A stretch of DNA of 64,000 nucleotides, taken from the sequence record PP216085. One strand, written 5' to 3'. A program made the position numbers and the translations under genes. Every line of letters starts with the position of its first letter. The first letter of the stretch is position 1. Below, in pieces: positions 17,869 through 53,380 of this stretch. The stretch comes from Escherichia phage vB_EcoM_HZ_ZJUN4. The notes beneath the pieces are model-generated. The model saw nothing but the letters and a program-made list of their open reading frames with translations. It had not been told where the DNA came from and ran no database searches.

Positions 17869-17940
17869 ATACAAGTAATATAAATCTATACTTAGGAAAA
17901 ATAGATGATTCTGGGCCCTTTGAATTCATTAAAAATTTTT

Positions 17941-18402: not shown

Positions 18403-18654
18403 ATGGAAACTTTAGTAGCAGGTTCAATTTTTATGGTTTTAGTTTCAGGCGTGTTGGCTATTATTATATACATGCTTCCATGGTTCATCGCCTTGATGCG
18501 CGGGTCAAAATCGACAGTAGGAATCTTTTTCACATCTTTACTGTTTAACTGGTCAATTATTGGTTGGTTTATTACATTTATTTGGTCAATTGCTGGTGAA
18601 ACTAAAAAATCTGCGCAGCCAAATCAGGTAATTATCATCAGAGAGAAGGAATGA
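18403..18654 (+). CDS. imm: superinfection immunity membrane protein Imm
   Basis: 83-aa two-helix membrane protein between 43 and 42 as in T4. Confidence 0.75.
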   Translation: METLVAGSIFMVLVSGVLAIIIYMLPWFIALMRGSKSTVGIFFTSLLFNWSIIGWFITFIWSIAGETKKSAQPNQVIIIREKE

Positions 18655-20180: not shown

Positions 20181-21019
20181 TTCAATTCGTAATTCCAAGT
20201 TATCAACGCGTAGGGGCAGTTTCTGCCCTTGATATGTTTCCGACTGATTATGAACCTCATATTGTAGTACGTGAACACGAAGAAAAAGCTTATTATGACG
20301 CTTACGGGTCTAGAGCTAAAATTATAACTATTCCTGATGATGTTAATGGAATTGCTGGAACTCGTAAAGCAATTACTGATATGTATGCAGGTCAACGAAT
20401 CTGGATGATTGACGATGATACTACTATTCGTATGAGTTCAATGCGAAAGAAAGATGATCGTCGCTGCGTAGATAAAATTAACCAGTTAACTCGTGAACAG
20501 TTCTATGAATTGATTCAATACGTTGAAGATGCCATGGATTGCGGGTATTATCATGGTCATGCTCGTTTACCTATTTTTAAAATTACTTCATCTTGGGGTA
20601 ATTATCGTGAAAATTCATATGGATTCACGAATACTTGGTATGACCTCGGAAAACTTGCAACAGAACAAATTGGGTATGGAAAAATTGATTTATGCGAAGA
20701 TATGTATGCATTTCTCAATTTAATTAATCAAGGTTATCCGCATTTGGCCTTGTTCAAATATCTAGTTGTATCTGGAAAAGCACAGGCTCCCGGTGGATGC
20801 AGCTCAATTCGTAGTAATTCAAAACATAATAGAGCGCTTGAGCAAATCAATAGAGAGTTTCCAGAGCAAGCTCGTTGGAAAACTTCTAATATTGAAAAAC
20901 GAAAATCATTGGGTGAAGAAGACGAGCCATTAAAGGTTCTTCGCATGTGTGTTTCACGCAAAGAAAAGTCAGAAGCATTTCATAAGTTTAATGCTATTCA
21001 TCCAATAGCAGTTGATTAA
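20177..21019 (+). CDS. putative glycosyltransferase with DxD motif (WMIDDDTT); candidate T2/T6-type beta-glucosyl-HMC-alpha-glucosyltransferase at the T4 beta-gt locus
   Basis: 280-aa ORF between 42 and uvsX; no resemblance to T4 beta-gt as I recall it; DxD after hydrophobic strand. Confidence 0.4.
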   Translation: MIQFVIPSYQRVGAVSALDMFPTDYEPHIVVREHEEKAYYDAYGSRAKIITIPDDVNGIAGTRKAITDMYAGQRIWMIDDDTTIRMSSMRKKDDRRCVDKINQLTREQFYELIQYVEDAMDCGYYHGHARLPIFKITSSWGNYRENSYGFTNTWYDLGKLATEQIGYGKIDLCEDMYAFLNLINQGYPHLALFKYLVVSGKAQAPGGCSSIRSNSKHNRALEQINREFPEQARWKTSNIEKRKSLGEEDEPLKVLRMCVSRKEKSEAFHKFNAIHPIAVD

Positions 21020-21096: not shown

Positions 21097-22278
21097 ATGT
21101 CTATTGCAGATTTAAAATCCCGTTTGATTAAAGCTTCCACTTCTAAAATGACTGCTGAACTGACTACATCTAAATTCTTTAATGAAAAGGATGTAATCCG
21201 TACAAAAATCCCAATGCTTAATATCGCTATTTCAGGTGCGATTGACGGTGGTATGCAGTCTGGTTTAACCATTTTTGCAGGTCCTTCTAAACACTTTAAA
21301 TCAAATATGTCTTTGACTATGGTTGCGGCGTATTTGAACAAATATCCTGACGCGGTATGTCTATTTTATGATAGCGAATTTGGTATTACTCCAGCTTATT
21401 TGCGATCCATGGGAGTTGACCCGGAACGAGTAATTCATACACCAATCCAGTCAGTTGAACAACTGAAAATTGATATGGTGAATCAGCTTGAAGCTATTGA
21501 GCGCGGTGAAAAAGTTATTGTATTCATCGACTCAATCGGTAATATGGCTTCTAAGAAAGAAACGGAAGATGCCTTGAATGAAAAATCTGTGGCAGATATG
21601 ACTCGTGCTAAATCACTGAAGTCATTATTCCGTATTGTTACTCCTTATTTTAGCATTAAAAATATTCCATGCGTTGCGGTTAACCATACAATTGAAACAA
21701 TTGAAATGTTTAGTAAAACCGTGATGACAGGTGGTACAGGCGTAATGTATTCGGCTGATACTGTATTCATTATCGGTAAGCGTCAGATTAAAGATGGTTC
21801 TGATCTTCAGGGGTATCAATTTGTTCTAAATGTAGAAAAATCTCGTACCGTTAAAGAAAAAAGTAAATTCTTTATTGATGTTAAATTTGACGGTGGTATC
21901 GATCCTTATTCTGGATTGTTAGATATGGCTCTTGAATTAGGATTTGTGGTAAAACCTAAAAATGGCTGGTATGCTCGTGAATTTCTTGATGAAGAAACCG
22001 GCGAGATGATTCGTGAAGAAAAATCTTGGCGTGCAAAAGATACCAATTGCACTACATTCTGGGGTCCTTTATTTAAGCATCAACCATTCCGAGATGCTAT
22101 TAAACGTGCTTATCAGTTAGGTGCTATTGATAGTAATGAAATTGTTGAAGCTGAAGTTGATGAATTGATTAACTCAAAGGTTGAAAAATTTAAATCTCCA
22201 GAAAGTAAAAGTAAATCAGCAGCTGATTTAGAAACTGACCTAGAACAGTTAAGTGATATGGAAGAATTTAATGAATAA
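21097..22278 (+). CDS. uvsX: recombinase UvsX (RecA-like)
   Basis: 393 aa; MSIADLKSRLIKASTSK... and Walker A GPSKHFKS recognised as UvsX. Confidence 0.93.
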   Translation: MSIADLKSRLIKASTSKMTAELTTSKFFNEKDVIRTKIPMLNIAISGAIDGGMQSGLTIFAGPSKHFKSNMSLTMVAAYLNKYPDAVCLFYDSEFGITPAYLRSMGVDPERVIHTPIQSVEQLKIDMVNQLEAIERGEKVIVFIDSIGNMASKKETEDALNEKSVADMTRAKSLKSLFRIVTPYFSIKNIPCVAVNHTIETIEMFSKTVMTGGTGVMYSADTVFIIGKRQIKDGSDLQGYQFVLNVEKSRTVKEKSKFFIDVKFDGGIDPYSGLLDMALELGFVVKPKNGWYAREFLDEETGEMIREEKSWRAKDTNCTTFWGPLFKHQPFRDAIKRAYQLGAIDSNEIVEAEVDELINSKVEKFKSPESKSKSAADLETDLEQLSDMEEFNE

Positions 22279-22615
22279 AGATGATTTAGATTTAGATCTA
22301 GAAATTATCGACGAATCCCCCTCTTCGGAGGGGGAAGAAGAAAGAAAAGAACGTCTTTTTAATGAATCTCTTAAGATAATTAAATCTGCCATGGAAAATG
22401 TTATCCAGGAGATTGTCATTAAACTAGAAGATGGTTCTACACACATTGTGTATGTGACAAAATTAGATTGGGTTGATGGAAAAGTCGTAATGGACTTTGC
22501 TGTTCTTGACCAAGAAAGAAAAGCTGAGTTAGCTCCTCATGTAGAAAAATGTATTACAATGCAACTACAAGATGCATTTAATAAAAGGTCAAAGAAAAAA
22601 TTTAAATTCTTTTAA
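22271..22615 (+). CDS. 40: head vertex assembly chaperone gp40
   Basis: 114 aa from ATG 22271 overlapping uvsX stop; position between uvsX and 41. Confidence 0.65.
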   Translation: MNKDDLDLDLEIIDESPSSEGEEERKERLFNESLKIIKSAMENVIQEIVIKLEDGSTHIVYVTKLDWVDGKVVMDFAVLDQERKAELAPHVEKCITMQLQDAFNKRSKKKFKFF

Positions 22616-22624
22616 GGAGTAAGT

Positions 22625-24052
22625 GTGGTAGAAATTATTCTTTCTCATCTCATATTTGATCAAGCTTATTTTTCAAAAGTTTGGCCATATATGGATTCAG
22701 AATATTTTGAAAGTGGTCCAGCTAAAAATACATTCAAATTAATTAAATCACATGTTAATGAGTATCATAGCGTTCCATCTATTAATGCGTTAAATGTTGC
22801 ATTAGAAAATAGTTCATTTACTGAAACAGAATATTCTGGTGTAAAAACACTTATTTCAAAACTAACCGATTCTCCGGAAGACCACAGCTGGTTAGTAAAA
22901 GAAACAGAAAAATATGTTCAGCAAAGGGCGATGTTTAACGCCACATCTAAAATAATTGAAATTCAAACCAATGCTGAGCTTCCTCCAGAAAAACGAAATA
23001 AGAAAATGCCGGATGTAGGTGCTATTCCTGACATCATGCGCCAAGCATTATCAATTTCATTTGATAGTTACGTTGGTCATGATTGGATGGATGACTATGA
23101 AGCACGTTGGCTATCTTATATGAATAAAGCTCGTAAGGTTCCATTTAAACTCAAAATTCTAAATAAAATTACTAAAGGCGGAGCTGAGACTGGAACACTG
23201 AACGTTTTAATGGCTGGTGTTAACGTTGGTAAGTCATTAGGTCTATGTTCATTGGCAGCAGATTATTTGCAGCTCGGTCATAATGTTCTTTACATTTCAA
23301 TGGAAATGGCAGAAGAAGTCTGTGCTAAACGTATTGACGCTAATATGCTTGACGTTTCTCTTGATGACATTGATGATGGGCATATTTCTTACGCTGAATA
23401 TAAAGGAAAAATGGAAAAATGGCGTGAGAAATCTACTCTCGGTCGTTTAATCGTTAAACAGTATCCTACTGGTGGTGCAGACGCTAATACATTTCGTTCT
23501 CTTTTGAACGAATTGAAGCTCAAGAAGAATTTTGTTCCAACAATCATTATTGTTGACTATCTAGGTATTTGTAAATCTTGTCGCATCAGAGTTTACTCAG
23601 AAAATAGTTACACAACTGTTAAAGCTATCGCAGAGGAATTGCGTGCTCTGGCTGTTGAAACCGAAACTGTTCTTTGGACTGCAGCACAGGTTGGTAAGCA
23701 GGCTTGGGATTCTTCTGATGTTAACATGAGCGATATTGCAGAATCCGCCGGTCTTCCAGCAACAGCCGATTTTATGCTTGCGGTCATTGAAACCGAGGAG
23801 TTAGCAGCTGCTGAACAACAACTCATTAAGCAAATCAAATCACGATATGGTGATAAGAATAAATGGAATAAGTTTTTGATGGGTGTTCAAAAAGGAAATC
23901 AAAAATGGGTAGAAATTGAGCAAGATTCTACTCCAACCGAAGTGAACGAAGTAGCAGGTTCACAGCAGATTCAGGCTGAGCAGAATCGCTATCAAAGAAA
24001 CGAATCTACTCGAGCCCAGTTAGATGCTTTGGCAAATGAATTAAAATTTTAG
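22625..24052 (+). CDS. 41: replicative DNA helicase gp41 (DnaB-like)
   Basis: 475 aa; Walker A GVNVGKS; GTG start; recognised as T4 gp41. Confidence 0.93.
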   Translation: MVEIILSHLIFDQAYFSKVWPYMDSEYFESGPAKNTFKLIKSHVNEYHSVPSINALNVALENSSFTETEYSGVKTLISKLTDSPEDHSWLVKETEKYVQQRAMFNATSKIIEIQTNAELPPEKRNKKMPDVGAIPDIMRQALSISFDSYVGHDWMDDYEARWLSYMNKARKVPFKLKILNKITKGGAETGTLNVLMAGVNVGKSLGLCSLAADYLQLGHNVLYISMEMAEEVCAKRIDANMLDVSLDDIDDGHISYAEYKGKMEKWREKSTLGRLIVKQYPTGGADANTFRSLLNELKLKKNFVPTIIIVDYLGICKSCRIRVYSENSYTTVKAIAEELRALAVETETVLWTAAQVGKQAWDSSDVNMSDIAESAGLPATADFMLAVIETEELAAAEQQLIKQIKSRYGDKNKWNKFLMGVQKGNQKWVEIEQDSTPTEVNEVAGSQQIQAEQNRYQRNESTRAQLDALANELKF

Positions 24053-24083
24053 TTTACAAGCTGACAGGACTATGGTATAGTAG
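24048..24083 (+). promoter_or_regulatory. T4-type early promoter (GTTTACA 24052-24058, TATAGT -10 24076-24081)
   Basis: Consensus-like -35 GTTTAC and TGGTATAGT. Confidence 0.55.
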
Positions 24084-24110
24084 TCTTGTTGGTTAAATGA
24101 GGAGATTGTT

Positions 24111-24293
24111 ATGGAATTGGTAAAGGTAGTTTTTATGGGGTGGTTTAAGAATGAAAGCATGTTTACTAAAGAAATCACAATGATGAAAGACGACGTTCAA
24201 TGGGCTACTACTCAATATGCTGAAGTTAATAAAGCATTAGTTAAAGCTTTCATTGATGACAAGAAAGTATGCGAAGTGGATTGCCGAGGATAA
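24111..24293 (+). CDS. dmd: Dmd, inhibitor of host RnlA/LsoA mRNA endoribonuclease toxins
   Basis: 60 aa MELVKVVFMGWFKNESMFTKEITMMKDD... recognised as T4 Dmd. Confidence 0.8.
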   Translation: MELVKVVFMGWFKNESMFTKEITMMKDDVQWATTQYAEVNKALVKAFIDDKKVCEVDCRG

Positions 24294-24294
24294 T

Positions 24295-24549
24295 ATGCAC
24301 ATTGTTTTATTTAAACCTACTCCATACAGTGAATCATACTGTGTTAGGAAAAATACAAAATTTAAATTACCTATTTCATCCGCATGGGAATTGGTATTAG
24401 ATATTCCAGCAGAAGAAAGCCCTCCATTCGGTCGAGTGGAATTTATTGAGTTTGTTGTACGTCCTACGAAGCGACAGATTCGCCAATGCAAAAGATACTT
24501 TCGTAAAATAGTCAAGTTAGAGAAACAGTTACTGATGCTAGTAAAATAG
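24295..24549 (+). CDS. hypothetical protein (T4 61.4 position)
   Basis: ORF with GAGGA SD before ATG 24295; track start 24253 overlaps dmd. Confidence 0.45.
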   Translation: MHIVLFKPTPYSESYCVRKNTKFKLPISSAWELVLDIPAEESPPFGRVEFIEFVVRPTKRQIRQCKRYFRKIVKLEKQLLMLVK

Positions 24550-24583
24550 TAGTTTACAAGCTGATAGAGTTGTGTTATAGTAA
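24548..24583 (+). promoter_or_regulatory. T4-type early promoter (GTTTACA 24552-24558, TATAGT 24576-24581)
   Basis: Near duplicate of promoter at 24048. Confidence 0.55.
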
Positions 24584-24612
24584 TTCTATCAGCTAATCGC
24601 GGAGAAAAGAAA

Positions 24613-24867
24613 ATGATGCTAGTTAATAGAGAATATCAGTTTAAATCAGAAGAAGATTTGGAAAAATTCGCAAGTGGTTGTGAACTGAATAGACGCACAG
24701 CTAAAGTCATAGGATTAAAACCCTTTACAGTTCTAGATTGTGAAGTTTCTAAATTCCGCAGAGGGTGTTCTATTAGCGGTCATGCTCTGGTTGATGGGAA
24801 CACATTTTTCTTTGTTTTTAGCGTCAGAGAACTTTTATTGATTAACGAACTTGAGGAAATAAAATAG
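24613..24867 (+). CDS. hypothetical protein
   Basis: 84-aa ORF downstream of early promoter. Confidence 0.5.
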   Translation: MMLVNREYQFKSEEDLEKFASGCELNRRTAKVIGLKPFTVLDCEVSKFRRGCSISGHALVDGNTFFFVFSVRELLLINELEEIK

Positions 24868-24924
24868 TTTACTTTTGTTGGAAATTGAGATACTATATAA
24901 ACATAAACTACTGAGGAGATTATC

Positions 24925-25218
24925 ATGAAAAAATTTGTTTTTGCTGCAATTTTTGCTTTGACTTCTTGTGCTGCTCAGCCTGCTATGGCGGGTTATGATA
25001 AAGATTTGTGCGAATGGTCTATGACTGCAGATCAGACTGAGGTTGAAACTCAAATTGAAGCGGATATTATGAATATCGTTGAGCGTGATCGTCCTGAAAT
25101 GAAAGCTGAAGTACAAAAACAGCTTAAATCTGGTGGTGTAATGCAGTATAATTATGTTCTGTATTGCGATAAAAACTTCAATAATAAAAATATCATCGCT
25201 GAAGTGGTAGGTGAATAA
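24925..25218 (+). CDS. sp: Spackle (Sp), periplasmic superinfection-exclusion / lysozyme-inhibitor protein
   Basis: 97 aa with signal peptide MKKFVFAAIFALTSCAAQPAMA; recognised as T4 Sp. Confidence 0.8.
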   Translation: MKKFVFAAIFALTSCAAQPAMAGYDKDLCEWSMTADQTEVETQIEADIMNIVERDRPEMKAEVQKQLKSGGVMQYNYVLYCDKNFNNKNIIAEVVGE

Positions 25219-25829
25219 TGCTTTATCAAATGCACAAGTGCAAAGACACGTACAAATATAAAGGTGCCCAGTGTTATATCATTAATCGTGAAAACGCAGG
25301 TCCAGGTCATTCGCATCAATCGCGGTTTGTATTCGTTAAAAACAACGAAATTATAGCAGTTGCTAATTACATGCTTGCGACTAGTGATGTTAATCCGGTG
25401 CCTTTCACATATTATAATCTAATGGACTTGGCGTACGATTATAATTGGTTTAATCATGATACTTTGGCTCATATTGAAGGTGTAGGATTTGATATCTCTT
25501 ATTCTAGTTACTCGTTGTGTCCTATGAGCCGAGCTCATAAAGAGCCTGAATATTTTTCATTTCGTCGGCGTGTAGACTTTAAACGCAGCACAGAGTATGT
25601 CGGTGGAATCTTTGTTAAAGATAATCGAATTACTCGCATTATTTATCCTTTGGGCTGTGGTCAAAAAGATATTGATGTTGATTTAGACTTTACTGAAAAC
25701 ATCATTAATCATATTGCTTCTGTGTATTTTGATATTGATCACAAAATTGTAATATGTGGATATGAATTACCATCAGAAAAACAGTCTATTGATGACCAAA
25801 TTTTTAATGCTTTTATGAATAGAGGTTAA
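25218..25829 (+). CDS. hypothetical protein (T4 61.1 position)
   Basis: 203-aa ORF, TAATG overlap with sp. Confidence 0.55.
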   Translation: MLYQMHKCKDTYKYKGAQCYIINRENAGPGHSHQSRFVFVKNNEIIAVANYMLATSDVNPVPFTYYNLMDLAYDYNWFNHDTLAHIEGVGFDISYSSYSLCPMSRAHKEPEYFSFRRRVDFKRSTEYVGGIFVKDNRITRIIYPLGCGQKDIDVDLDFTENIINHIASVYFDIDHKIVICGYELPSEKQSIDDQIFNAFMNRG

Positions 25830-25830
25830 T

Positions 25831-25995
25831 ATGAAAACGTTTAAAGAATTTATCAAAGAAGATATGGTCGCTGGAGATTCAGGTGGTAATCCTGAAAATA
25901 TCTCTACTGGAACAACGTCAGGCGCTGCAGTAAATAAAGGTCCTGAACAGATTCCTAAAAAGAAAAAAGAGGAATCTAAAGAAAAAGAAGAGTAA
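25831..25995 (+). CDS. hypothetical small acidic/lysine-rich protein (54 aa)
   Basis: ATG 25831 after GAGG; not in ORF track. Confidence 0.3.
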   Translation: MKTFKEFIKEDMVAGDSGGNPENISTGTTSGAAVNKGPEQIPKKKKEESKEKEE

Positions 25996-25998
25996 AAA

Positions 25999-27027
25999 AT
26001 GTCATCAATACCTTGGATTGATAATGAGTTTGCATATCGTGCGCTAGCTCATTTACCTAAATTCACACAAGTAAATAATAGTTCAACTTTTAAATTGCGG
26101 TTTAGATGCCCTGTTTGTGGAGATTCAAAAACCGACCAAAATAAAGCCCGTGGATGGTATTACGGCGATAATAATGAAGGAAATATTCATTGTTATAACT
26201 GTAACTATCATGCACCAATCGGAATATATTTAAAGGAGTTTGAACCTGATTTATATCGTGAGTATATCTTTGAAATAAGAAAAGAAAAAGGTAAAAGTCG
26301 TCTAGTAGAAAAACCTAAAGAACTTCCTAAACAACCCGAGAAGAAAATAATTAAATCTCTTCCGTCATGCATTAGATTAGATAAACTGGCGGAAGACCAT
26401 CCAATTATAAAATACGTAAAAGCTCGCTGTATTCCAAAGGATAAATGGAAATATCTTTGGTTTACAACCGAATGGCCTAAATTAGTTAATAGTATAGCAC
26501 CAGGAACATATAAAAAGGAAATACCTGAGCCTCGTCTTGTTATTCCAATTTATAATGCTAATGGAAAAGCTGAGTCTTTTCAAGGACGTGCATTAAAGAA
26601 AGATGCTCCTCAAAAATATATCACCATCAAAGCTTATCCTGAGGCAACAAAAATCTATGGAGTTGAACGAGTTAAAGATGGTGATGTATATGTTCTAGAA
26701 GGACCTATAGATTCACTTTTTATTGAAAATGGTATAGCTATTACGGGTGGTCAATTAGACCTAGAAATTGTTCCATTTAAAGATAGACGTGTATGGGTTT
26801 TAGATAATGAACCTCGTCACCCTGACACTATTAAACGAATGACTAAATTAGTTGATGCAGGAGAAAGGGTTATGTTTTGGGATAAATCTCCCTGGAAATC
26901 AAAAGATGTTAATGATATGATTAGAAAGGAAGGTGCAACCCCTGAACAAATTATGGAATATATGAAAAATAATATTGCCCAAGGGTTGATGGCTAAAATG
27001 CGGCTATCTAAATATGCTAAGATTTAA
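25999..27027 (+). CDS. 61: DNA primase gp61
   Basis: 342 aa; N-terminal zinc ribbon CPVCGDS..CYNCNYH; TOPRIM-like region. Confidence 0.9.
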   Translation: MSSIPWIDNEFAYRALAHLPKFTQVNNSSTFKLRFRCPVCGDSKTDQNKARGWYYGDNNEGNIHCYNCNYHAPIGIYLKEFEPDLYREYIFEIRKEKGKSRLVEKPKELPKQPEKKIIKSLPSCIRLDKLAEDHPIIKYVKARCIPKDKWKYLWFTTEWPKLVNSIAPGTYKKEIPEPRLVIPIYNANGKAESFQGRALKKDAPQKYITIKAYPEATKIYGVERVKDGDVYVLEGPIDSLFIENGIAITGGQLDLEIVPFKDRRVWVLDNEPRHPDTIKRMTKLVDAGERVMFWDKSPWKSKDVNDMIRKEGATPEQIMEYMKNNIAQGLMAKMRLSKYAKI

Positions 27028-27224
27028 ATTAACCCAACCAAAGCAAATGCTAAATCTACGAATGTATCAAGAGTAATTACTGGAATACTAACGCCATGAG
27101 CAATAGCAACTGGCGATAAAACAAAATTCCAAAGTAAAATTCCTATCATAGCAGAAATAGTAAAAGCTATACGTTTTTTATTACCTTTGATGGCATTAAC
27201 AAGTGCCATTAATTTTTGTACCAT
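27024..27224 (-). CDS. hypothetical small membrane protein, antisense to the early gene block
   Basis: 66-aa hydrophobic ORF with strong AGGAGG SD 7 nt before ATG; late-promoter-like GATAAATA just upstream on minus strand; stop overlaps gene 61 stop. Confidence 0.5.
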   Translation of the reverse strand: MVQKLMALVNAIKGNKKRIAFTISAMIGILLWNFVLSPVAIAHGVSIPVITLDTFVDLAFALVGLI

Positions 27225-27328: not shown

Positions 27329-28668
<1,340 letters not shown>

Positions 28669-30020: not shown

Positions 30021-30233
30021 ATGTTAAATCGCTGGATTAAACCAAATGAAGACCTCCAGAAGGTTCTTGATAAAGCTATCGCTGATAAATGGGGTATGAA
30101 AAGCTGGGATTGTGATGTCGTCACGCATTCATTCATGATGCATGCAGATGGTTCAGTCGAGTTCAATGCTGAAATGCGATATACTGACTGGGGTGGATTT
30201 CAAAGAGTCGAATTTCAAAGAGGCTTTTTGTAA
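30021..30233 (+). CDS. hypothetical protein
   Basis: 70-aa ORF after early promoter and SD. Confidence 0.5.
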   Translation: MLNRWIKPNEDLQKVLDKAIADKWGMKSWDCDVVTHSFMMHADGSVEFNAEMRYTDWGGFQRVEFQRGFL

Positions 30234-30574
30234 TGTTTATCTTTAATTGGTTTAAAAATTTCTTTATGGATTTTTTCTTTACAGCTCCTGGAGAAGGTGT
30301 AGTTCCTATTTCAAATGACTACCTTCCTTTAACTGTAGTTGAATATGTTTATATGGGAGATGGAACAGTAGAAGCAGTTACTATGACTTATGAAGAAGCC
30401 CAGGAATATTATAAAAATCCTTGGCGCTGGTCAACACCTACTACATCATCTAATACACAGAATACACAGTCTAATTCTGATTCATATGACACTAATGTTC
30501 CTGTTCATGTATGGACGGGCGATTCGTGTGGAAGTTCTTGCGATTCTAGTTGTTCATCTACATCTTGCGATTGA
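30233..30574 (+). CDS. hypothetical protein with Cys/Ser-rich C-terminal tail ([16 protein letters not shown])
   Basis: 113-aa ORF; start may be an internal Met. Confidence 0.45.
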
Positions 30575-30582
30575 GGAAAATT

Positions 30583-31068
30583 ATGGAAGCGATTTTGTTT
30601 GAAATGTATATTAGCAGTGATAGCATGTCGTTTGCTAAAGACGTTCCAATTACTGTAGCAGTAATGATTGATAAGGGTTATTGTGACCCAATGTATCTCG
30701 TAGAAAATTTCGTTTCAATGCCAGTTCCAGAAGATGCTGAAATAAAACTTAAAAAGATTGGTATTATTGAAACTGTACCAAATATTCCATTTAGAGCAAT
30801 TGAAGCATTTACTAAATCCGAATACATTAATGTTAGCGCAGAACAATATAATGATAAACCTTTATCTTTCTATTCGTATGATTCATTATATAGTTGGAAA
30901 ATAGATAAAGGAAATAAATTTATAATTGCAAGTGAAGATGCTTTATCATACTTTATTTCTTCTATATGGAATAGTTTACATCCAAATTTGCTAAAAATTC
31001 ATAAATTCGATGATGCTCCTACTGTTGTTTTAGGTAAAATAAATGAAAGTTCTGAAGAAAATGTTTGA
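30583..31068 (+). CDS. hypothetical protein
   Basis: ATG 30583 after GAGG (track start 30550). Confidence 0.5.
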
Positions 31069-31246
31069 ATGGTTCAATAGACCAAACTCAATGTACATTG
31101 ACGATGGTTGGGTTGAACAAGCAAATAAAGAAATGCAGAACGAATCAGAAGAATGGATGAAATCAATGATTAGTGCTGAGAAAGAAAAGAAATTAGAACG
31201 CTCAGCGCTTAAATTGATGAGAGACATCTATGGGGATAAATCGTGA
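31043..31246 (+). CDS. hypothetical protein (charged, coiled-coil-like)
   Basis: 67-aa ORF. Confidence 0.4.
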
Positions 31247-31399
31247 ACAGAGATATGACGTTAGAAGAGGCCAAGGCTAAAGCAAATGAAGCATTGGATT
31301 TGCTTCTTAAAATTGGCAGTAAAATGATGGAAGAAAATGAGAAATATATCCAGGAAAACAAAATTCCTGACGGCCCGTTAGTAGGCAAGAGGAAATCAC

Positions 31400-31870
31400 A
31401 TGATTGAAGTAGCAAAACATTATTCAATAGAATTTATGTCTAAAGAAGGTAAATCAGTAAATACGCTTGACAAAGATTGCTCATTAATTATTCCTTTAGC
31501 AGAAAATCCGGACCTTTTAATTAAAGATATAAAAGAAAGAAAATATCCAGAAAATGTTATTCTAATTATAAAGCATACTGAAGATATTTTGCAGCATACT
31601 GATTCACCATTTTCTTCTTCTGAGGCTTTAACTATTAAAGGCTATAAAAGAGCTCATGAATATGGTCTTTTTGACCTGTTTGAAGACGATAAAGTTAAAT
31701 TAGCGAGTCAACCTTCTAAAAGTAAAACATTCATTATTGAAGATATTAAAGATATAAATGCATTTGTTAAGATGGTCTGGGCTCATTTTGATGTTGGACT
31801 ACGCTGGAGAATGTCCGAAGAAGAAAGAAAGATTATTGAAGCTAATCGTTATTTTGGTTTTTATCGCTAG
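31400..31870 (+). CDS. hypothetical protein (T4 mrh region)
   Basis: 156-aa ORF upstream of modB. Confidence 0.45.
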
Positions 31871-31878
31871 GAATTAAT

Positions 31879-32061
31879 ATGGATTTATTTGAGATGTTAG
31901 AAGATAATCATTCTACGAATATCCAGAATGATTCTAGTGATTATAAGAAAGAATACCGTATAGTATTACAGAATTATGGAATTGAAGCTCCAGATGCTCT
32001 TCTAGAAGAACTAGCTTCATACCATCTTGACCCTCCGCCCTGGGCTCCCTGGGCAAAATAA
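31879..32061 (+). CDS. hypothetical protein
   Basis: 60-aa ORF. Confidence 0.35.
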   Translation: MDLFEMLEDNHSTNIQNDSSDYKKEYRIVLQNYGIEAPDALLEELASYHLDPPPWAPWAK

Positions 32062-32128: not shown

Positions 32129-32752
32129 ATGATTATTAATCTTGCAGATGTTGAACAGTTATCTATAAAAGCTGAAAGCGTTGATTTTCAATATGATATG
32201 TATAAAAAGGTCTGTGAAAAATTTACTGACTTTGAACAGTCAGTTCTTTGGCAATGTATGGAAGCCAAAAAGAATGAAGCTCTTCATCGGCAGTTGAATA
32301 AAATCGTTAAAAAGCATTTAACTAAATCACCTTATCAGCTATATCGTGGTATATCAAAATCGACAAAAGAACTCATTAAAGATTTACAAGTCGGAGAAGT
32401 GTTTTCAACGAACAGAGTAGATTCATTTACTACTAGTTTGCATACAGCGTGTTCTTTTTCTTATGCTGAATATTTCACTGAAATAGTACTTCGCTTAAAA
32501 ACTGATAAAGCTTTTAATTATTCTGACCATATCAGTGATATCATACTTTCTTCTCCTAATACTGAGTTTAAGTATACATATGAAGATACTGATGGATTAG
32601 ATTCAGAACGTACTGATAACTTAATGATGATTGTGCGTGAACAAGAATGGATGATTCCAATTGGAAAGTATAAAATAACTTCTATTTCAAAAGAAAAATT
32701 ACACGATTCATTTGGAACATTTAAAGTGTATGATATTGAGGTAGTTGAATGA
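32129..32752 (+). CDS. modB: ADP-ribosyltransferase ModB
   Basis: 207 aa from ATG 32129 (GGAGG SD); R-S-ExE signature (YRGI, STN, EQEWMIP); paired with second ART gene. Confidence 0.7.
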   Translation: MIINLADVEQLSIKAESVDFQYDMYKKVCEKFTDFEQSVLWQCMEAKKNEALHRQLNKIVKKHLTKSPYQLYRGISKSTKELIKDLQVGEVFSTNRVDSFTTSLHTACSFSYAEYFTEIVLRLKTDKAFNYSDHISDIILSSPNTEFKYTYEDTDGLDSERTDNLMMIVREQEWMIPIGKYKITSISKEKLHDSFGTFKVYDIEVVE

Positions 32753-33351
32753 AATATTCAGCAATGCAATTAAAAGATTTTAAAATCAAATCAATGGATG
32801 CATCGGTGCGTGCTTCTATTCGTGAAGAATTACTTTCTGAAGGATTTAATTTATCCGAAATTGAACTTTTAATTCATTGTATTACTAATAAGCCAGACGA
32901 CCACTCTTGGTTAAATGAAATAATCAAATCTCGTTTGGTTCCAAACGATAAACCTCTTTGGAGAGGTGTTCCAGTTGAAACTAAGCAGGTGTTAAATCAA
33001 GGAATTGATATTATTACATTTGATAAAGTAGTATCAGCTTCATATGATAAAAATATAGCTCTACATTTTGCTTCTGGATTAGAATACAACACACAAGTTA
33101 TTTTTGAATTCAAAGCTCCTATGGTATTTAATTTTCAGGAGTATGCTATAAAAGCTCTACGTTGTAAAGAATATAGTCCGAGTTTTAAGTTTCCGGATAG
33201 CCATCGTTATCGTAATATGGAATTAGTTTCAGATGAACAAGAAGTAATGATACCAGCTGGAAGTGTATTTAGAATTGCGGATAGATATGAGTATAAAAAG
33301 CATTCAACATACACTATCTATACTCTTGACTTTGAAGGATTTAATCTATAA
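32749..33351 (+). CDS. modA: ADP-ribosyltransferase ModA
   Basis: 200 aa; R-S-ExE signature (WRGV, SAS, EQEVMIP); ATGA overlap with modB. Confidence 0.7.
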   Translation: MKYSAMQLKDFKIKSMDASVRASIREELLSEGFNLSEIELLIHCITNKPDDHSWLNEIIKSRLVPNDKPLWRGVPVETKQVLNQGIDIITFDKVVSASYDKNIALHFASGLEYNTQVIFEFKAPMVFNFQEYAIKALRCKEYSPSFKFPDSHRYRNMELVSDEQEVMIPAGSVFRIADRYEYKKHSTYTIYTLDFEGFNL

Positions 33352-48214: not shown

Positions 48215-48670
48215 ATGAAATACATGACTGTTACTGATCTGAATAATGCAGGCGCAACTGTTATTGGTACAATTAAGGGCGGTGAATGGGTTTTTGGAAC
48301 TCCGCATAAAGACATTTTGTCTAACCCTGGATTTTACTTTTTAGTAAGCAAATTTGGTGGTCCATTTGATAGTCCATGTGTATCTGCACGATTTTATGTA
48401 GGTAATCAGCGTTCTAAACAAGGATTTAGCGCAGTTCTAAGTCATATTCGCCAGCGTCGGTCTCAGCTTGCGCGTACTATTGCAAATAACAATGTTCCAT
48501 ACACGGTATTTTATCTACCTGCTTCTAAGATGAAACCTCTGACGACGGGATTTGGAAAAGGTCAGTTAGCTTTAGCGTTTACTCGTAATCATCATTCTGA
48601 GTATCAAACACTTGAAGAAATGAACCGTATGTTGGCTGATAACTTTAAATTTGTTTTGCAGGCATATTAA
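48215..48670 (+). CDS. ndd: nucleoid disruption protein Ndd
   Basis: 151 aa from ATG 48215 ([25 protein letters not shown]...) recognised as T4 Ndd. Confidence 0.85.
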
Positions 48671-48750
48671 TGAGTAATTTCCATAACGAACATGTAATGC
48701 AGTTCTATCGTAACAATCTTAAAACTAAAGGCGTCTTCGGACGCCAGTGA
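48670..48750 (+). CDS. stp: Stp peptide (26 aa), activator of host PrrC anticodon nuclease / EcoprrI inhibitor
   Basis: [26 protein letters not shown]; ATG overlaps ndd stop; contains hairpin ggcgtcttcggacgcc. Confidence 0.75.
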
Positions 48751-50652: not shown

Positions 50653-51288
50653 ATGTCTAAAGTAACTTACATCATCAAAGCTTCTAACGATGTTCTGAAT
50701 GAAAAAACTGCTGCGATTTTAATTACCATTGCTAAGAAAGATTTCATTACAGCTGCAGAAGTTCGTGAGGTGCATCTAGATTTAGGTAACGCAGTAGTTA
50801 ATAGTAATATTGGGGTATTGATTAAAAAAGGCCTGGTGGAGAAATCTGGTGATGGATTAATCATTACAGGTGAAGCTCAGGATATTATTTCAAATGCAGC
50901 AACTTTATACGCACAGGAAAATGCTCCTGAACTGTTGAAAAAACGAGCAACACGTAAAGCTCGCGAGATTACTTCCGATATGGAAGAAGATAAAGACTTC
51001 ATGTTAAAACTTTTAGATGAAAATGGATTTGTTCTTAAAAAAGTTGAAACTTATCGTAGTAACTATCTCGCTATTTTAGAAAAACGCACTCACGGAATTC
51101 GCAATTTTGAAATTAACAACAATGGAAATATGCGAATTTTTGGATACAAAATGATGGAACATCATATTCAGAAATTTACTGATATTGGAATGTCATGTAA
51201 AATCGCTAAAAACGGTAATGTGTATCTTGACATTAAACGCTCGGCAGAAAACATTGAAGCTGTAATCACCGTAGCATCTGAACTGTGA
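50653..51288 (+). CDS. motA: middle-transcription activator MotA
   Basis: 211 aa MSKVTYIIKASNDVLNEKTAAILITIAKKDF... recognised as T4 MotA. Confidence 0.9.
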   Translation: MSKVTYIIKASNDVLNEKTAAILITIAKKDFITAAEVREVHLDLGNAVVNSNIGVLIKKGLVEKSGDGLIITGEAQDIISNAATLYAQENAPELLKKRATRKAREITSDMEEDKDFMLKLLDENGFVLKKVETYRSNYLAILEKRTHGIRNFEINNNGNMRIFGYKMMEHHIQKFTDIGMSCKIAKNGNVYLDIKRSAENIEAVITVASEL

Positions 51289-51298: not shown

Positions 51299-51628
51299 AT
51301 GAACAAGTTAGAAATTATCAATGAACTTCGTCGCTGTGCAGAACCCACTCAAGAGGGGTGGGACATCTGGTACCATGGAGCTTATCTTGGAACCATCGTA
51401 AAGATTAAGACTGGCAAATACATGATTATTCGTGAAAGTAAAGATGCTCCAGTAGGTATTCGCAATAATTTCATGGCAGCGATAAGTTCCTTTACGGATT
51501 CAGCTTACGAAATTTACCTTGCTGATTATAAAGAATTCCAGGAATCTCAATCAGTTATTCGCTCAATTGGTGTTAACAAAGCTCAACAGAAAACCTTGTG
51601 GCAACGTATTAAAGGATGGTTTAAATGA
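51299..51628 (+). CDS. hypothetical protein
   Basis: 109-aa ORF. Confidence 0.5.
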
Positions 51629-52086
51629 ACCCATTTATTAATCGTTTAAAAATGCTGAATGTTCCTTTATCTCGTGAAACTCCAGAAAGTCTTGTTGAAA
51701 AATTTAAAGCGCATGGTTATAAATGCACAGAAGAAGATATTCTTGCAGAAGTTCCTGAAATCTGTTGGCAGTCTGCATACTGGGATGAAAACCAAAAGTA
51801 TCAACGACGAATTGTTTGCGCAGCCAACCGTTTTAAATTAAAAGATGGACGAACTCTTGTTATTCCAGGTGCTCGTCATTATTCTAAAGACATGGCAGCA
51901 GTTTTAGATGTAGTTAAACCTCAATTAGTTACTCAGCAAGTTTGTGATGATGACCAAGGGTTTATTGACCAATATAGTAATTATTGGACACGTGAAGAAG
52001 CAATGATTATTGCAACTTACGCTGGACAAGTACGCATTGAACGTGGTGGTAGTGAAAAAGAACTTTACTCTGAGGACCTTTACTAA
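51625..52086 (+). CDS. hypothetical protein
   Basis: 153-aa ORF, ATGA overlap. Confidence 0.5.
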
Positions 52087-52382
52087 TGAATATTAAAAAG
52101 TTTCAAATTGACGGAATTATGAATCAAATCCAGGCATTGGAATATGCCAATAAAATGATGTCAACCAAATGGGGAATTTATGCCAATGAACCGGCATTTC
52201 AGTTCTGTAATATGGAATTCACTAAAAAGCTCGTAGGAAAAGATTATGTATGTCCATTTAGTTCTCCAGTAAATGGAATGTTAAAGCCTGCTTTACGCGA
52301 TCTTTATATCGCGATGAACGAAGAGATGATAAAAGAACTAAAACGTCAACTGAAGGTGATTCAATTTGGCCAGGGAAATTAA
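52086..52382 (+). CDS. hypothetical protein
   Basis: 98-aa ORF. Confidence 0.5.
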   Translation: MNIKKFQIDGIMNQIQALEYANKMMSTKWGIYANEPAFQFCNMEFTKKLVGKDYVCPFSSPVNGMLKPALRDLYIAMNEEMIKELKRQLKVIQFGQGN

Positions 52383-52584
52383 TTCAAAATCCGATTATTT
52401 TAATTCTCTTAATGATAAAGATAAAAATCTAATACGGCATTTTATCGTTGAGATGGGATATACTGATACACGTGATTTAAGAGAACATATATTTGAATGT
52501 GGTGTAGCTAAAAAGTTTTCATTCACATGCAAATGTTTAAGAGAGGTAATTCAGCACTATGAACAATTTAGTCGCAAAACATAA
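52366..52584 (+). CDS. hypothetical protein
   Basis: 72-aa ORF. Confidence 0.4.
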   Translation: MAREINSKSDYFNSLNDKDKNLIRHFIVEMGYTDTRDLREHIFECGVAKKFSFTCKCLREVIQHYEQFSRKT

Positions 52585-52667: not shown

Positions 52668-52946
52668 ATGATTATTGATTCTCAATCTGTGGTTCAATAC
52701 ATAATCAAAATTGACATTCTAGAAAAGCTATATAAGTTTCTACCAAATTTATACCACTCAATTGTCGATGAATTAGTTGAAGAACTACATCTTGAGAATA
52801 ATGATTTCTTGGTTGGAACTTATAAAGATAACTCAAAGGCGGGATATTTTTACGTAATTCCAGCTCCAGGAAAAAGTATTGATGATGTATTAAAAACTAT
52901 AATGATTTATGTCCATGATTACGAAATTGAAGATTATTTCGAATGA
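52668..52946 (+). CDS. arn: probable Arn (anti-restriction nuclease, McrBC inhibitor) by position and size
   Basis: 92-aa acidic ORF immediately upstream of asiA. Confidence 0.45.
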   Translation: MIIDSQSVVQYIIKIDILEKLYKFLPNLYHSIVDELVEELHLENNDFLVGTYKDNSKAGYFYVIPAPGKSIDDVLKTIMIYVHDYEIEDYFE

Positions 52947-53107: not shown

Positions 53108-53380
53108 ATGAATAAAAGCATTGATACAGTTCGTGAAATTATTACTGTTGCATCTATTTTGATTAAATTTTCCAGAGAAGATATTGTTGAGAATCGTGCT
53201 AATTTTATTGCATTTCTGAATGAGATTGGAGTAACGCATGAAGGTAGAAAGTTAAATCAGAATTCATTCCGTAAAATTGTTGCTGAATTAACTCAAGAAG
53301 ATAAGAAAACCCTCATCGACGAATTCAACGAGGGTTTTGAAGGTGTATATCGATATCTAGAGATGTATACAAACAAATAA
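53108..53380 (+). CDS. asiA: anti-sigma-70 factor AsiA
   Basis: 90 aa MNKSIDTVREIITVASILIKFSREDIVENRANFIAFLNEIG... recognised as AsiA. Confidence 0.9.
   Translation: MNKSIDTVREIITVASILIKFSREDIVENRANFIAFLNEIGVTHEGRKLNQNSFRKIVAELTQEDKKTLIDEFNEGFEGVYRYLEMYTNK

What the first reader, a model, noticed from the sequence alone, without database searches (positions are those of the whole stretch)
24111..24293. Clustered host-takeover and anti-defence genes on the early strand
The window carries dmd (antitoxin against RnlA/LsoA), imm and sp (superinfection exclusion), modA/modB (ADP-ribosyltransferases), ndd, stp, probable arn, asiA and motA. These are all small genes interleaved with unknown ORFs, so the uncharacterised neighbours (for example 24295-24867, 51299-52584, 30021-32061) are the most likely places for further anti-defence functions.
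Basis: partly seen in the sequence, partly recalled or inferred. Interest (0 to 1): 0.4.

Follow-up and report, generated by a model that had tools for sequence, protein, structure and literature searches.

The report
T4-type dmd and anti-toxin gene island
The flagged interval is the well-known phage T4 antitoxin gene dmd, sitting in an ordinary T4-like early-gene region whose "unknown" neighbours are mostly named or already characterised genes, with one extra small gene left as an untested counter-defence candidate.

Summary
The window is a 64-kb stretch of a T4-like coliphage (Tequatrovirus, about 97% identical to several sequenced phages). Interval 24111-24293 is dmd, 100% identical to T4 Dmd (PDB 5HY3_B).

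The "unknown neighbours" are mostly named T4 genes:
- 24295-24549 is tifA (61.4), a published ToxN inhibitor.
- 25218-25829 is adfA (61.2), an anti-DarT factor.
- 30021-32061 is mrh.2, mrh.1, mrh, srh, modA.4, modA.3 and modA.2.
- 51299-52584 is arn.4 to arn.1, whose functions are still unknown.

The idea that dmd-tifA-adfA form an "anti-TA island" with further candidates was published in 2022.

The one thing T4 lacks here is an 84-aa ORF at 24613-24867:
- It has its own early promoter and stem-loop.
- It is a single-domain relative of the GoF N-terminal (LSm/SH3-like) domain.
- It is under purifying selection and occurs in 83 phage records.
- It lies in the 41-sp island in all four lineages examined.

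It is a reasonable but untested counter-defence candidate. Overall the finding is correct, ordinary and already known.

The parts
24053..24081 (+). Early sigma-70-type promoter of the dmd-tifA operon, with a stem-loop spanning the -10 region (PeSL-like)
   Evidence: TTTACA-17-TATAGT, 10/12 matches with an extended TG. The stem-loop folds at -19.5 kcal/mol, z -4.0. The sequence is nearly identical (one mismatch over this interval) to the T4 sequence upstream of dmd.
24111..24293 (+). dmd (61.5), antitoxin-like inhibitor of the RnlA/LsoA RNase toxins
   Evidence: 100% identical to T4 Dmd and to PDB 5HY3_B, 60/60 residues, E 1.8e-37.
24295..24549 (+). tifA (61.4), RNA-binding inhibitor of the type III toxin ToxN. 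This allele has a 4-aa insertion near the N-terminus and a shorter, different C-terminal tail
   Evidence: 81% identical to T4 61.4. Pfam DUF7279 at 73.3 bits against a cut-off of 24.5; phrog_2375. The DNA alignment shows the 12-nt insertion and the divergence from about 24532. Function is taken from PMC9391042 and PMC10853763.
24553..24594 (+). Second early promoter plus stem-loop (PeSL-like) driving the extra ORF. It is a 72%-identical direct repeat of the dmd promoter region, 500 nt downstream of it
   Evidence: TTTACA-17-TATAGT, 10/12 matches. 64-nt direct repeat D1 and 13-nt inverted repeat I3. Stem-loop at -18 kcal/mol, z -3.6.
24613..24867 (+). Extra 84-aa ORF ('orfX') absent from T4: a single-domain relative of the GoF N-terminal LSm/SH3-like domain, function unknown
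   Evidence: Absent from the T4 alignment.
- Sequence: phrog_2980 at E 3.2e-20; paralogue of window GoF at E 4.8e-5.
- Structure: AF2 model with pLDDT 80.3; BFVD match to T4 MotB.1 at E 1.2e-4.
- Distribution: 83 phage records.
- Selection: pN 0.09-0.13 against pS 0.40-0.81.
24867..24896 (+). Early promoter upstream of sp; also the right-hand junction of the orfX cassette
   Evidence: GTTTAC...TACTAT, shared with the T4 sequence upstream of sp. TAGTTTAC occurs three times, at 24050, 24550 and 24865. PMC9391042 mentions a promoter downstream of tifA.
24925..25218 (+). sp (spackle), superinfection exclusion
   Evidence: 95.9% identical to T4 Sp.
25218..25829 (+). adfA (61.2), anti-DarT factor A
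   Evidence: 94.2% identical to T4 61.2. The closely related phage P8 annotates it as anti-DarT factor A. Literature. His is retained in the NIINH motif.
18403..18654 (+). imm, superinfection immunity
   Evidence: 98.8% identical to T4 Imm.
30021..32061 (+). mrh.2, mrh.1, mrh, srh, modA.4, modA.3, modA.2: seven small early genes, two of them annotated as sigma-32 (heat-shock) modulators
   Evidence: tblastn to T4 gives 58.6-98.5% identity. mrh.1 hits DUF7206 and modA.3 hits T4_MRH. All have PHROG hits.
32129..33351 (+). modB and modA ADP-ribosyltransferases
   Evidence: 97.1% and 97.5% identical to T4.
48215..48750 (+). ndd and stp
   Evidence: 95.4% and 100% identical to T4.
50653..51288 (+). 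motA
   Evidence: 97.2% identical to T4.
51299..52584 (+). arn.4, arn.3, arn.2, arn.1: upstream genes of the arn transcript, functions unknown
   Evidence: 96-98% identical to T4. PHROG hits only, with no family in the Pfam or NCBIfam scans run here. arn.3 has 155 homologue clusters, those listed carrying a precomputed PF26092 tag. No PDB sequence match. The preprint says the functions are unknown.
52668..52946 (+). arn, inhibitor of McrBC
   Evidence: 93.5% identical to T4. PDB 3WX4 at E 8.6e-53.
53108..53380 (+). asiA anti-sigma factor
   Evidence: 97.8% identical to T4.

Best explanation
The window is the early/middle-gene half of a T4-like (Tequatrovirus) genome. The flagged interval is dmd, the first gene of the early dmd-tifA operon. 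This operon lies in the variable island between helicase gene 41 and primase gene 61.

Shown by others for T4:
- Dmd binds and blocks the RnlA/LsoA RNase toxins.
- TifA binds ToxN and RNA and traps the toxin.
- AdfA (shown for phage RB69 and its R164H variant) binds DarT.
- Sp and Imm exclude superinfecting phage.
- ModA/ModB, Ndd, AsiA and MotA redirect the host.
- Arn blocks McrBC.

All of these are inferred here from 93-100% sequence identity, not tested.

Compared with T4, this phage carries one more cassette in the island: an early promoter with a stem-loop plus an 84-aa ORF (24613-24867). The cassette is inserted between the 3' end of tifA and the sp promoter. [quoted passage not shown]

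My inference is that this ORF is a further accessory host-interaction protein of the island. Most likely it acts on an RNA-targeting host factor or toxin, either by direct protein binding (as Dmd does) or through RNA (as TifA does). It was probably gained or lost by recombination between the repeated promoter elements.

The confidence of 0.9 applies to the identity of the locus and of the named genes. The functional guess for the extra ORF carries only about 0.2-0.3.
For: Identity of the phage and of all named genes:
- (gene map against T4 and phage P8).
- Dmd equals PDB 5HY3_B.
- Arn equals PDB 3WX4.
- TifA is in Pfam DUF7279.
- published functions and the anti-TA island concept.

Evidence for orfX:
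- It is absent from T4, with breakpoints at tifA codon ~77 and at the sp -35 element.
- It has its own promoter and stem-loop.
- It has GoF-family sequence similarity.
- The model is a five-strand barrel with pLDDT 80, matching T4 MotB.1 and many T4-like N-terminal domains.
- It lies in the island next to or near tifA or dmd in four lineages: the window, SP18, L012 and L013/14.
- It is under purifying selection.
Against: - No functional data exist for orfX or for wild-type GoF. The 2025 GoF study found no RNA effect for wild-type GoF or MotB.1.
- orfX is mildly acidic (pI 5.8), which does not favour RNA binding.
- PDB fold matches are weak (E about 0.1, SH3-like domain of EF-P/eIF5A), and no Hfq/Sm entry is in the top 50.
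- The structural model rests on only 7 sequences.
- Guilt by association in a hyperplastic region is weak evidence. Sp, in the same island, is not an anti-TA factor.
Confidence: 0.9

Rival explanations
1. orfX is not a counter-defence protein. It is a modulator of the phage's own mRNA metabolism, like the GoF(D25Y) effect on gene 41 mRNA, tuning expression of neighbouring early genes.
For: It is homologous to the GoF N-terminal domain. GoF(D25Y) stabilises an RNA carrying the gene 41 5' UTR. orfX lies just downstream of gene 41.
Against: Wild-type GoF and MotB.1 showed no such effect. orfX is dispensable, being absent from T4 and from most of the 717 related records. It is acidic.
Confidence: 0.25
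2. orfX is a neutral passenger ORFan that is shuffled by promoter-stem-loop (PeSL) recombination and gives the phage no benefit.
For: It has a patchy distribution (83 records). The family is very small: 5 clusters among 5.8 billion proteins and one clear representative (P0006, E 4e-27) among 1.8 billion proteins; the eight other hits (E 4e-12 to 2e-4) are long proteins of 367-1292 aa matching in several short stretches, which I read as spurious. It is flanked by repeated promoter elements.
Against: It shows strong purifying selection (pN/pS about 0.1-0.2). It is retained at 55-57% identity across genera, in the same island. It has a good Shine-Dalgarno site and its own strong promoter.
Confidence: 0.1
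3. The remaining small ORFs flagged by the first reader (arn.1-4, mrh.1/2, modA.2-4) act in host takeover or regulation (transcription, heat-shock response, RNA handling) and do not inhibit dedicated defence systems.
For: mrh and srh are annotated as sigma-32 modulators, and modA.3 is an Mrh paralogue. arn.3 is widely conserved across T4-like phages of many hosts (155 clusters); such breadth is more typical of a general function than of a strain-specific counter-defence.
Against: arn.4 to arn.1 are co-transcribed with the anti-McrBC gene arn, and a preprint's authors consider counter-defence roles conceivable. mrh.2 and mrh are unusually diverged from T4 (58.6% and 77.5%), as expected for arms-race genes.
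Confidence: 0.4
4. The small ORFs are conserved structural or metabolic genes.
For: soc (29664-29921), which lies next to the mrh cluster, is a capsid decoration protein. PHROG labels 29247-29414 a 'virion structural protein'.
Against: None of the ORFs in the three flagged intervals hits a structural or metabolic family in Pfam, PHROGs or NCBIfam. All lie in early or middle transcription units.
Confidence: 0.03

Closest known systems
T4 dmd-tifA(61.4)-sp-adfA(61.2) 'anti-TA island' (Srikant, Guegler & Laub 2022, PMC9391042)
   Same: Same genes in the same order and on the same strand between genes 41 and 61. Dmd is 100%, Sp 96% and AdfA 94% identical. TifA is 81% identical, with the basic PTKRQIRQCKRYFRK cluster and the Phe equivalent to T4 F41 intact.
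   Different: - There is an extra promoter+ORF cassette (orfX) between tifA and sp.
- TifA has a 4-aa N-terminal insertion and a different, shorter C-terminal tail.
- The dmd-tifA unit is flanked by a 64-nt direct repeat of the promoter element, with a 15-nt exact core and 500-nt spacing. The repeated copy lies in the inserted segment that T4 lacks.
GoF / MotB.1 / Frd.2 LSm-like fold family of Tevenvirinae (Kim et al. 2025, PMC12152347)
   Same: orfX aligns to the GoF N-terminal domain (36.6% over 41 aa; profile E 2e-6 to 3e-20). The predicted five-strand bent sheet matches the T4 MotB.1 model.
   Different: orfX consists of the N-terminal domain only (84 aa, no C-terminal domain). It has conserved Cys23/Cys43/Cys52 and His57 that GoF lacks. 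It sits in the 41-61 island, not near gene 39 or motB.
PeSL (promoter-early stem-loop) ORFan cassettes of T4-type phages (Arbiol et al. 2010, PMC2839356)
   Same: An AT-rich lead, a strong sigma-70-like promoter, a stem-loop overlapping the -10 region, then a Shine-Dalgarno site and ATG. There is a presence/absence polymorphism with breakpoints in the promoter elements.
   Different: PeSLs were defined in RB49/phi1 and usually have GGGG...CCCC stems; the stems here are A/T-richer. Mini-circle formation was not tested.
T4/T2 arn operon (arn.4-arn.3-arn.2-arn.1-arn)
   Same: Same five genes at 93-98% identity, and the same 70-nt gap between arn.2 and arn.1 (52383-52452) as described for T2.
   Different: arn.4 is an intact 109-aa ORF here (full-length match to phrog_1594), against 68 aa in the T4 RefSeq annotation.

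Membership tests
Dmd antitoxin (T4 gene 61.5) | Sequence identity to T4 Dmd / solved structure 5HY3_B | tested here: met
   60/60 residues identical, E 1.8e-37; tblastn 100%.
Dmd antitoxin (T4 gene 61.5) | Position directly downstream of gene 41, under an early promoter, co-operonic with 61.4 | tested here: met
   Gene 41 ends at 24052, the promoter lies at 24053-24081, dmd is 24111-24293 and tifA starts at 24295.
Dmd antitoxin (T4 gene 61.5) | Binds and neutralises RnlA/LsoA | not testable with these tools
   Inferred from identity with the crystallised protein only.
TifA (61.4, Pfam DUF7279) | Profile match above the curated threshold | tested here: met
   DUF7279 at 73.3 bits against a cut-off of 24.5; phrog_2375 at E 9e-34.
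TifA (61.4, Pfam DUF7279) | Central cluster of basic residues needed for RNA binding (K55/R56/R59 in the RB69 protein) | tested here: met
   RPTKRQIRQCKRYFRK is identical to T4 TifA. The residue mapping to RB69 is by inspection only.
TifA (61.4, Pfam DUF7279) | Adjacent to dmd | tested here: met
   The start codon lies 1 nt after the dmd stop.
TifA (61.4, Pfam DUF7279) | Inhibits ToxN | not testable with these tools
   The allele keeps Phe at the F41-equivalent position (F45 here), the weaker variant according to PMC10853763.
GoF/MotB.1/Frd.2 LSm-like fold family (for orfX) | Detectable sequence homology to a family member's N-terminal domain | tested here: met
   phmmer against window GoF gives E 4.8e-5, and jackhmmer recruits only GoF. 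orfX hits phrog_2980 at E 3e-20, and GoF hits the same profile at E 2.3e-6.
GoF/MotB.1/Frd.2 LSm-like fold family (for orfX) | Bent five-stranded antiparallel beta-sheet | tested here: met
   The AF2 model (pLDDT 80.3, pTM 0.66) has strands at 7-10, 38-48, 51-60, 63-70 and 80-82, with two helices after strand 1. It is a model from a 7-sequence alignment, not a solved structure.
GoF/MotB.1/Frd.2 LSm-like fold family (for orfX) | Structural match to a named family member | tested here: met
   BFVD P39415 (T4 MotB.1) at E 1.2e-4, TMq 0.66, plus many N-terminal domains of T4-like phage proteins.
GoF/MotB.1/Frd.2 LSm-like fold family (for orfX) | Two-domain architecture (N-terminal barrel, linker, C-terminal domain) | tested here: not met
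   orfX is 84 aa and has the barrel only.
GoF/MotB.1/Frd.2 LSm-like fold family (for orfX) | Similarity to solved Sm/Hfq structures | tested here: inconclusive
   The top PDB hits are SH3-like N-domains of EF-P/eIF5A at E about 0.1 and TM 0.36-0.45. No Hfq/Sm entry is in the top 50.
Anti-TA / counter-defence island cargo (for orfX) | Located in the gene 41-sp variable island next to known anti-toxin genes in independent lineages | tested here: met
   - Window and L006: dmd-tifA-orfX-sp.
- L012: orfX-tifA-sp.
- L013/14: orfX-50aa-tifA-sp.
- SP18: 41-orfX-x-x-dmd-sp.

Anti-TA / counter-defence island cargo (for orfX) | Neutralises a defence system or toxin | not testable with these tools
PeSL cassette | Sigma-70-like early promoter with an adjacent or overlapping stable stem-loop upstream of the ORF | tested here: met
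   Promoter with 10/12 matches. Stem of 14 bp at -18 kcal/mol, z -3.6.
PeSL cassette | Insertion/deletion polymorphism bounded by such elements | tested here: met
   T4 lacks 24532-24865, and the junctions fall at AAAATAG(TAG)TTTAC repeats.
PeSL cassette | Forms excised mini-circles | not testable with these tools
   This needs inverse PCR on infected cells.

The most novel reading that the evidence does not exclude
The 84-aa ORF at 24613-24867 is a previously uncharacterised counter-defence protein. It would be a minimal, single-domain LSm/SH3-like member of the GoF family that neutralises an RNA-targeting toxin or defence nuclease. It is carried on a promoter-stem-loop cassette that moves within the anti-TA island of T-even phages. 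In addition, the homologous promoter repeats (15-nt exact core, 500-nt spacing) that flank dmd-tifA in this phage would make that unit unusually easy to amplify under toxIN-type selection.
Probability: 0.2. Interest if true: 0.5.

Novelty: already known. Interest (0 to 1): 0.15.

Why it matters
As written, the finding re-describes the textbook T4 early region and the published anti-TA island, so it adds little. There are two modest gains:
- A precise map showing which "unknown" ORFs are in fact tifA, adfA, mrh, srh and so on.
- One concrete, cheap-to-test candidate (orfX) for the next member of the anti-TA island. A result for it would also give the first functional handle on the GoF/MotB.1/Frd.2 domain family, whose wild-type function is unknown.

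Tried and rejected
- **Family searches.** Pfam, NCBIfam and PDB sequence searches of orfX, arn.1-4, mrh.1/2 and modA.2 gave either no hit or only DUF-type hits.
- **Homologues of orfX.** The 5.8-billion-protein search found only 5 close clusters. The exhaustive profile search of 1.8 billion representatives gave one clear relative (P0006, E 4e-27). The eight other hits (E 4e-12 to 2e-4) are long proteins of 367-1292 aa matching in several short stretches, which I judged spurious. The family could therefore not be extended.
- **IMG/VR scans.** The orfX scan gave 1 locus and the Dmd scan 5, too few for a survey of the island.
- **PDB fold search of orfX.** It gave only weak SH3-like barrel matches. 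I do not claim an Sm/Hfq relationship beyond what the 2025 paper proposes for GoF.
- **Possible zinc site.** I considered a site formed by Cys23/Cys43/Cys52/His57. I could not check the geometry because model coordinates are not exposed, so this is left as a note.
- **Alternative tifA start.** The longer TTG-start ORF at 24253-24549 that overlaps dmd was rejected in favour of the ATG at 24295, which matches the T4 annotation and the 85-aa TifA of the literature.
- **Public annotations.** The labels 'DNA polymerase' and 'goF' on these two ORFs in phage P8 are annotation noise or over-transfer.

Full report
**What the window is.** A megablast of 22000-27000 finds 717 phage records, 492 of which cover at least 80% of the query. 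The best are Tequatrovirus (T4-like) coliphages at about 97% identity. I took the T4 RefSeq annotation and ran every T4 protein of the corresponding regions against the window. The + strand from 1 to about 53380 carries the T4 early/middle genes in reverse T4 order: nrdD ... 55, a-gt, 47, 46, 45, 44, 62, regA, 43, imm.1, imm, 42, uvsX, 40, 41, dmd, 61.4, sp, 61.2, 61.1, 61, dam, 56, soc, mrh cluster, modB, modA, srd, dda, dexA, motB, cef, goF, 39, 60, rIIA, rIIB, denB, ndd cluster, stp, ac, 52, motA, arn cluster, asiA. From about 53384 onward the - strand carries the late genes t, 38/37 (T2-type), 36, 35 and 34. An early-promoter-like motif occurs 9 times on + and never on -, against 0.5 expected.

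**Checking the observation.** The flagged interval 24111-24293 is dmd. Its product is identical at 60/60 residues to T4 Dmd and to PDB 5HY3 chain B, the antitoxin in a solved structure.
- imm: 18403-18651, 98.8%
- sp: 24925-25215, 95.9%
- modB: 32129-32749, 97.1%
- modA: 32749-33348, 97.5%
- ndd: 48215-48667, 95.4%
- stp: 48670-48747, 100%
- motA: 50653-51285, 97.2%
- arn: 52668-52943, 93.5%, which also matches PDB 3WX4 at E 8.6e-53
- asiA: 53108-53377, 97.8%

**The 'uncharacterised neighbours'.**

*24295-24867* is two genes.
- The first, 24295-24549, is the orthologue of T4 61.4. It is 81% identical, hits Pfam DUF7279 at 73 bits, and starts 1 nt after the dmd stop.
- 61.4 was renamed tifA in 2022. 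T4 escapes the type III toxin-antitoxin system toxIN by amplifying dmd-tifA, and TifA inhibits ToxN (PMC9391042). TifA binds both ToxN and RNA and traps the toxin in a ribonucleoprotein complex (PMC10853763).
- The allele here keeps the basic cluster and the Phe equivalent to T4 F41, the weaker natural variant. It has a 4-aa insertion near the N-terminus and a different, shorter C-terminal tail.
- Two genes further on, 25218-25829 is 61.2 = adfA, the anti-DarT factor. It keeps the His in the NIINH motif. That this His corresponds to the functional position 164 in RB69 numbering is my inference.
- The 2022 paper already calls this region a possible 'anti-TA island' and says other genes in it are attractive anti-toxin candidates.

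*30021-32061* is mrh.2, mrh.1, mrh, srh, modA.4, modA.3 and modA.2.
- RefSeq annotates mrh as a heat-shock transcription modulator and srh as a postulated decoy of sigma-32. modA.3 is an Mrh paralogue (Pfam T4_MRH).
- The others have only DUF or PHROG memberships.
- mrh.2 (58.6%) and mrh (77.5%) are notably diverged from T4.

- None hits a family in the Pfam or NCBIfam scans run here, or a PDB sequence.
- arn.3 has 155 homologue clusters, those listed carrying a precomputed PF26092 tag, and the ones that carry a source name come from T4-like phages of many hosts.
- A June 2026 preprint on T2 states that the four functions are unknown and that counter-defence roles are conceivable. It places them on one transcript with arn.

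**The one thing T4 does not have here.** Aligning the window, T4 and phage P8 shows that T4 lacks window 24532-24865. The missing piece starts inside the last codons of tifA and ends at the -35 element of the sp promoter.

It contains the following:
- A second early promoter (TTTACA-17-TATAGT, 24553-24581).
- A 14-bp stem-loop over the -10 region (-18 kcal/mol, z -3.6).
- A Shine-Dalgarno site.
- An 84-aa ORF, 24613-24867 ('orfX').

The promoter region is a 64-nt, 72%-identical direct repeat of the dmd promoter region, exactly 500 nt upstream. The repeat has a 15-nt exact core, and the dmd promoter has an equivalent stem-loop (-19.5 kcal/mol, z -4.0). TAGTTTAC occurs at all three promoters (24050, 24550, 24865). 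This is the anatomy of the promoter-early stem-loop (PeSL) cassettes, which shuffle ORFans in T4-type phages by recombination between the elements (PMC2839356).

**What orfX is.**

*Sequence and family.*
- It matches phrog_2980 (E 3.2e-20), a 72-position profile labelled 'goF'.
- Within the window its only paralogue is GoF (38062-38481): phmmer E 4.8e-5, and jackhmmer recruits only GoF.
- GoF hits the same PHROG at E 2.3e-6.
- The alignment covers the GoF N-terminal half.
[quoted passage not shown] It found that only the mutant GoF(D25Y), not wild-type GoF or MotB.1, stabilises an RNA carrying the gene 41 leader (PMC12152347).

*Structure.*
- An AlphaFold2 model of orfX from a 7-sequence alignment has pLDDT 80.3 and pTM 0.66, with five strands and two helices after strand 1.
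- Against predicted viral structures it matches an 82-aa orthologue (E 4e-10), T4 MotB.1 (P39415, E 1.2e-4, TMq 0.66) and dozens of N-terminal domains of unknown T4-like proteins.
- Against the PDB only weak SH3-like barrel matches appear (EF-P/eIF5A N-domain, E about 0.1).
- orfX is therefore a stand-alone copy of the GoF-type domain. It lacks the C-terminal domain the three named members have, so it meets the fold and homology criteria of that family but not its architecture.

*Distribution, context and selection.*
- The family is tiny: 5 clusters among 5.8 billion proteins and one clear representative (P0006, E 4e-27) among 1.8 billion. The other eight hits in that search are long proteins matching in several short stretches, which I judged spurious.
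- It occurs in 83 phage records. About 70 are Tequatroviruses at 95% identity or more (RB3, RB5, RB7, RB10, PP01, ime09, Shfl2 and others). Thirteen are below 60% identity, and the six of those listed all sit at 57.4%, SP18 (Gaprivervirus) among them.
- Every context examined lies in the gene 41-sp island:
  - window and L006: dmd-tifA-orfX-sp
  - L012: 41-253aa-orfX-tifA-sp
  - L013/14: 41-253aa-orfX-50aa-tifA-sp
  - SP18: 41-orfX-x-x-dmd-sp, with a tifA-like ORF further downstream
- Pairwise comparison gives pN 0.09-0.13 against pS 0.40-0.81 among the closer homologues, so it is a real gene under purifying selection.
- It is mildly acidic (pI 5.8), like Dmd (5.2) and unlike TifA (9.95).

**How it most likely works.** For the finding as given, the mechanism is the established T4 one, inferred here from sequence identity only:
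- Early promoters on one strand drive small proteins that disarm host toxins. Dmd acts on RnlA/LsoA, TifA on ToxN and AdfA on DarT.
- Others block restriction (Arn against McrBC, plus the glucosyltransferases), exclude competing phage (Imm, Sp) and re-programme the host (ModA/B, Ndd, AsiA, MotA).

For orfX I commit to the following, as inference at roughly 0.2-0.3 probability. It is an accessory host-interaction protein of the anti-TA island. It acts on an RNA-directed host factor or toxin, more probably by direct protein binding (because of its acidic charge, as for Dmd) than by RNA binding.

The main rival is a GoF-like role in the phage's own mRNA metabolism. A neutral-passenger reading is disfavoured by the selection signal.

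A side inference: the homologous promoter repeats flanking dmd-tifA (15-nt exact core) should allow tandem amplification of that 500-bp unit more readily than the 6-10 bp microhomologies used in T4.

**Novelty and verdict.** The gene cluster, the identity of dmd, the functions of its neighbours tifA and adfA, and the 'island' hypothesis are all in the literature. The finding is correct but already known. The residual novelty is orfX, a new single-domain member of a recently described domain family, sitting in a suggestive place. I rate interest at 0.15.

**Side observations.** These are listed separately. The most notable is a 186-aa PD-(D/E)XK nuclease gene that overlaps the start of dam. T4 has largely deleted it, keeping only about its last 28 codons.

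Noticed in passing
window 27329-27889 (+), overlapping the dam start codon at 27889: A 186-aa ORF directly upstream of dam, overlapping its start codon by 1 nt, looks like a PD-(D/E)XK (restriction-endonuclease-fold) nuclease.
- It has weak sub-threshold Pfam hits to DpnII (a GATC enzyme; E 0.002) and BanI.
- The motif FDIVI...EIKHQ is invariant among its homologues.
- The AF2 model has pLDDT 79.7 and pTM 0.78.
- The leading PDB fold matches with confident probability are PD-(D/E)XK-type nucleases: VC1899, AF1548, the R2 endonuclease domain, Bax1, McrC, XisH and Mus81, from E 6e-4.
- It is present in 163 phage records, including T2.
- T4 keeps only about the last 28 codons.

A nuclease paired with a Dam methylase in a T-even phage resembles a restriction-modification pair. 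Its target and role are unknown.
   Followed up: partly
window 27024-27224 (-): A 66-aa hydrophobic ORF on the opposite strand between gene 61 and the nuclease gene, with a strong GGAGG ribosome-binding site. It is 92% conserved in T4 (record 17738-17935) but is not in the T4 RefSeq feature table I was shown. Phage P8 annotates it as hypothetical.
   Followed up: partly
window 24042-24105 and 24542-24605: dmd-tifA is bracketed by a 64-nt direct repeat of the promoter/stem-loop element (72% identity, 15-nt exact core TAGTTTACAAGCTGA, 500-nt spacing). This could favour tandem amplification or excision of the dmd-tifA unit. A third, similar promoter (GTTTACAAGCTGAAG...) lies at 33408, upstream of srd.
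   Followed up: partly
window 38663-39034 (+): A 123-aa GoF paralogue (phrog_622, E 8.6e-30) lies between 39.2 and 39.1 and is absent from T4. This phage therefore carries three GoF-type domains: GoF, this ORF and orfX.
   Followed up: no
window 41816-41895 (+): The gene 60 translational-bypass ('hop') region is present and 80/80 nt identical to T4. Just upstream, 40993-41715 is a single 240-aa ORF. It covers a mobA-like HNH endonuclease (a defective 37-aa remnant in T4) and the 60.1 region.
   Followed up: partly
window 19539-21019 (+): In place of T4 segA plus beta-glucosyltransferase, the phage has a 213-aa seg-like homing endonuclease (phrog_314). It also has a 280-aa gene that phage P8 annotates as beta-glucosyl-HMC-alpha-glucosyltransferase, pointing to a DNA glucosylation pattern different from T4's. 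On the - strand there is no match to T4 gp38 and only 35% identity to gp37, so the adhesin is not the T4 type; that it is the T2/T6 type is my reading and was not tested.
   Followed up: no
window 1563-2402 (+): A 279-aa HNH mob-like endonuclease ORF lies between nrdD and nrdG. Its first 13 codons duplicate the start of nrdG (MNYDRFYPCDFVN against MNYDRIYPCCFVN), a likely insertion scar.
   Followed up: no
window 52383-52452: The 70-nt gap between arn.2 and arn.1 matches the intergenic region described for T2. [quoted passage not shown] I did not check the pairing site itself.
   Followed up: no
L012 2679-3440; L013 2679-3440: In divergent T4-like contigs, the island position just after gene 41 (where dmd sits here) is occupied by a 253-aa ORF with no recorded Pfam hit and no PHROG hit. 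This is another unknown cargo gene of the same island.
   Followed up: partly
window 45886-46215, 46687-46992, 46998-47261, 37510-37833, 29247-29414 (+): Further small early ORFs with no T4 counterpart: DUF7418, phrog_4535, phrog_2390, phrog_3720 and phrog_5782. They replace or add to the T4 genes around denB, motB.1/motB.2 and segF.
   Followed up: no
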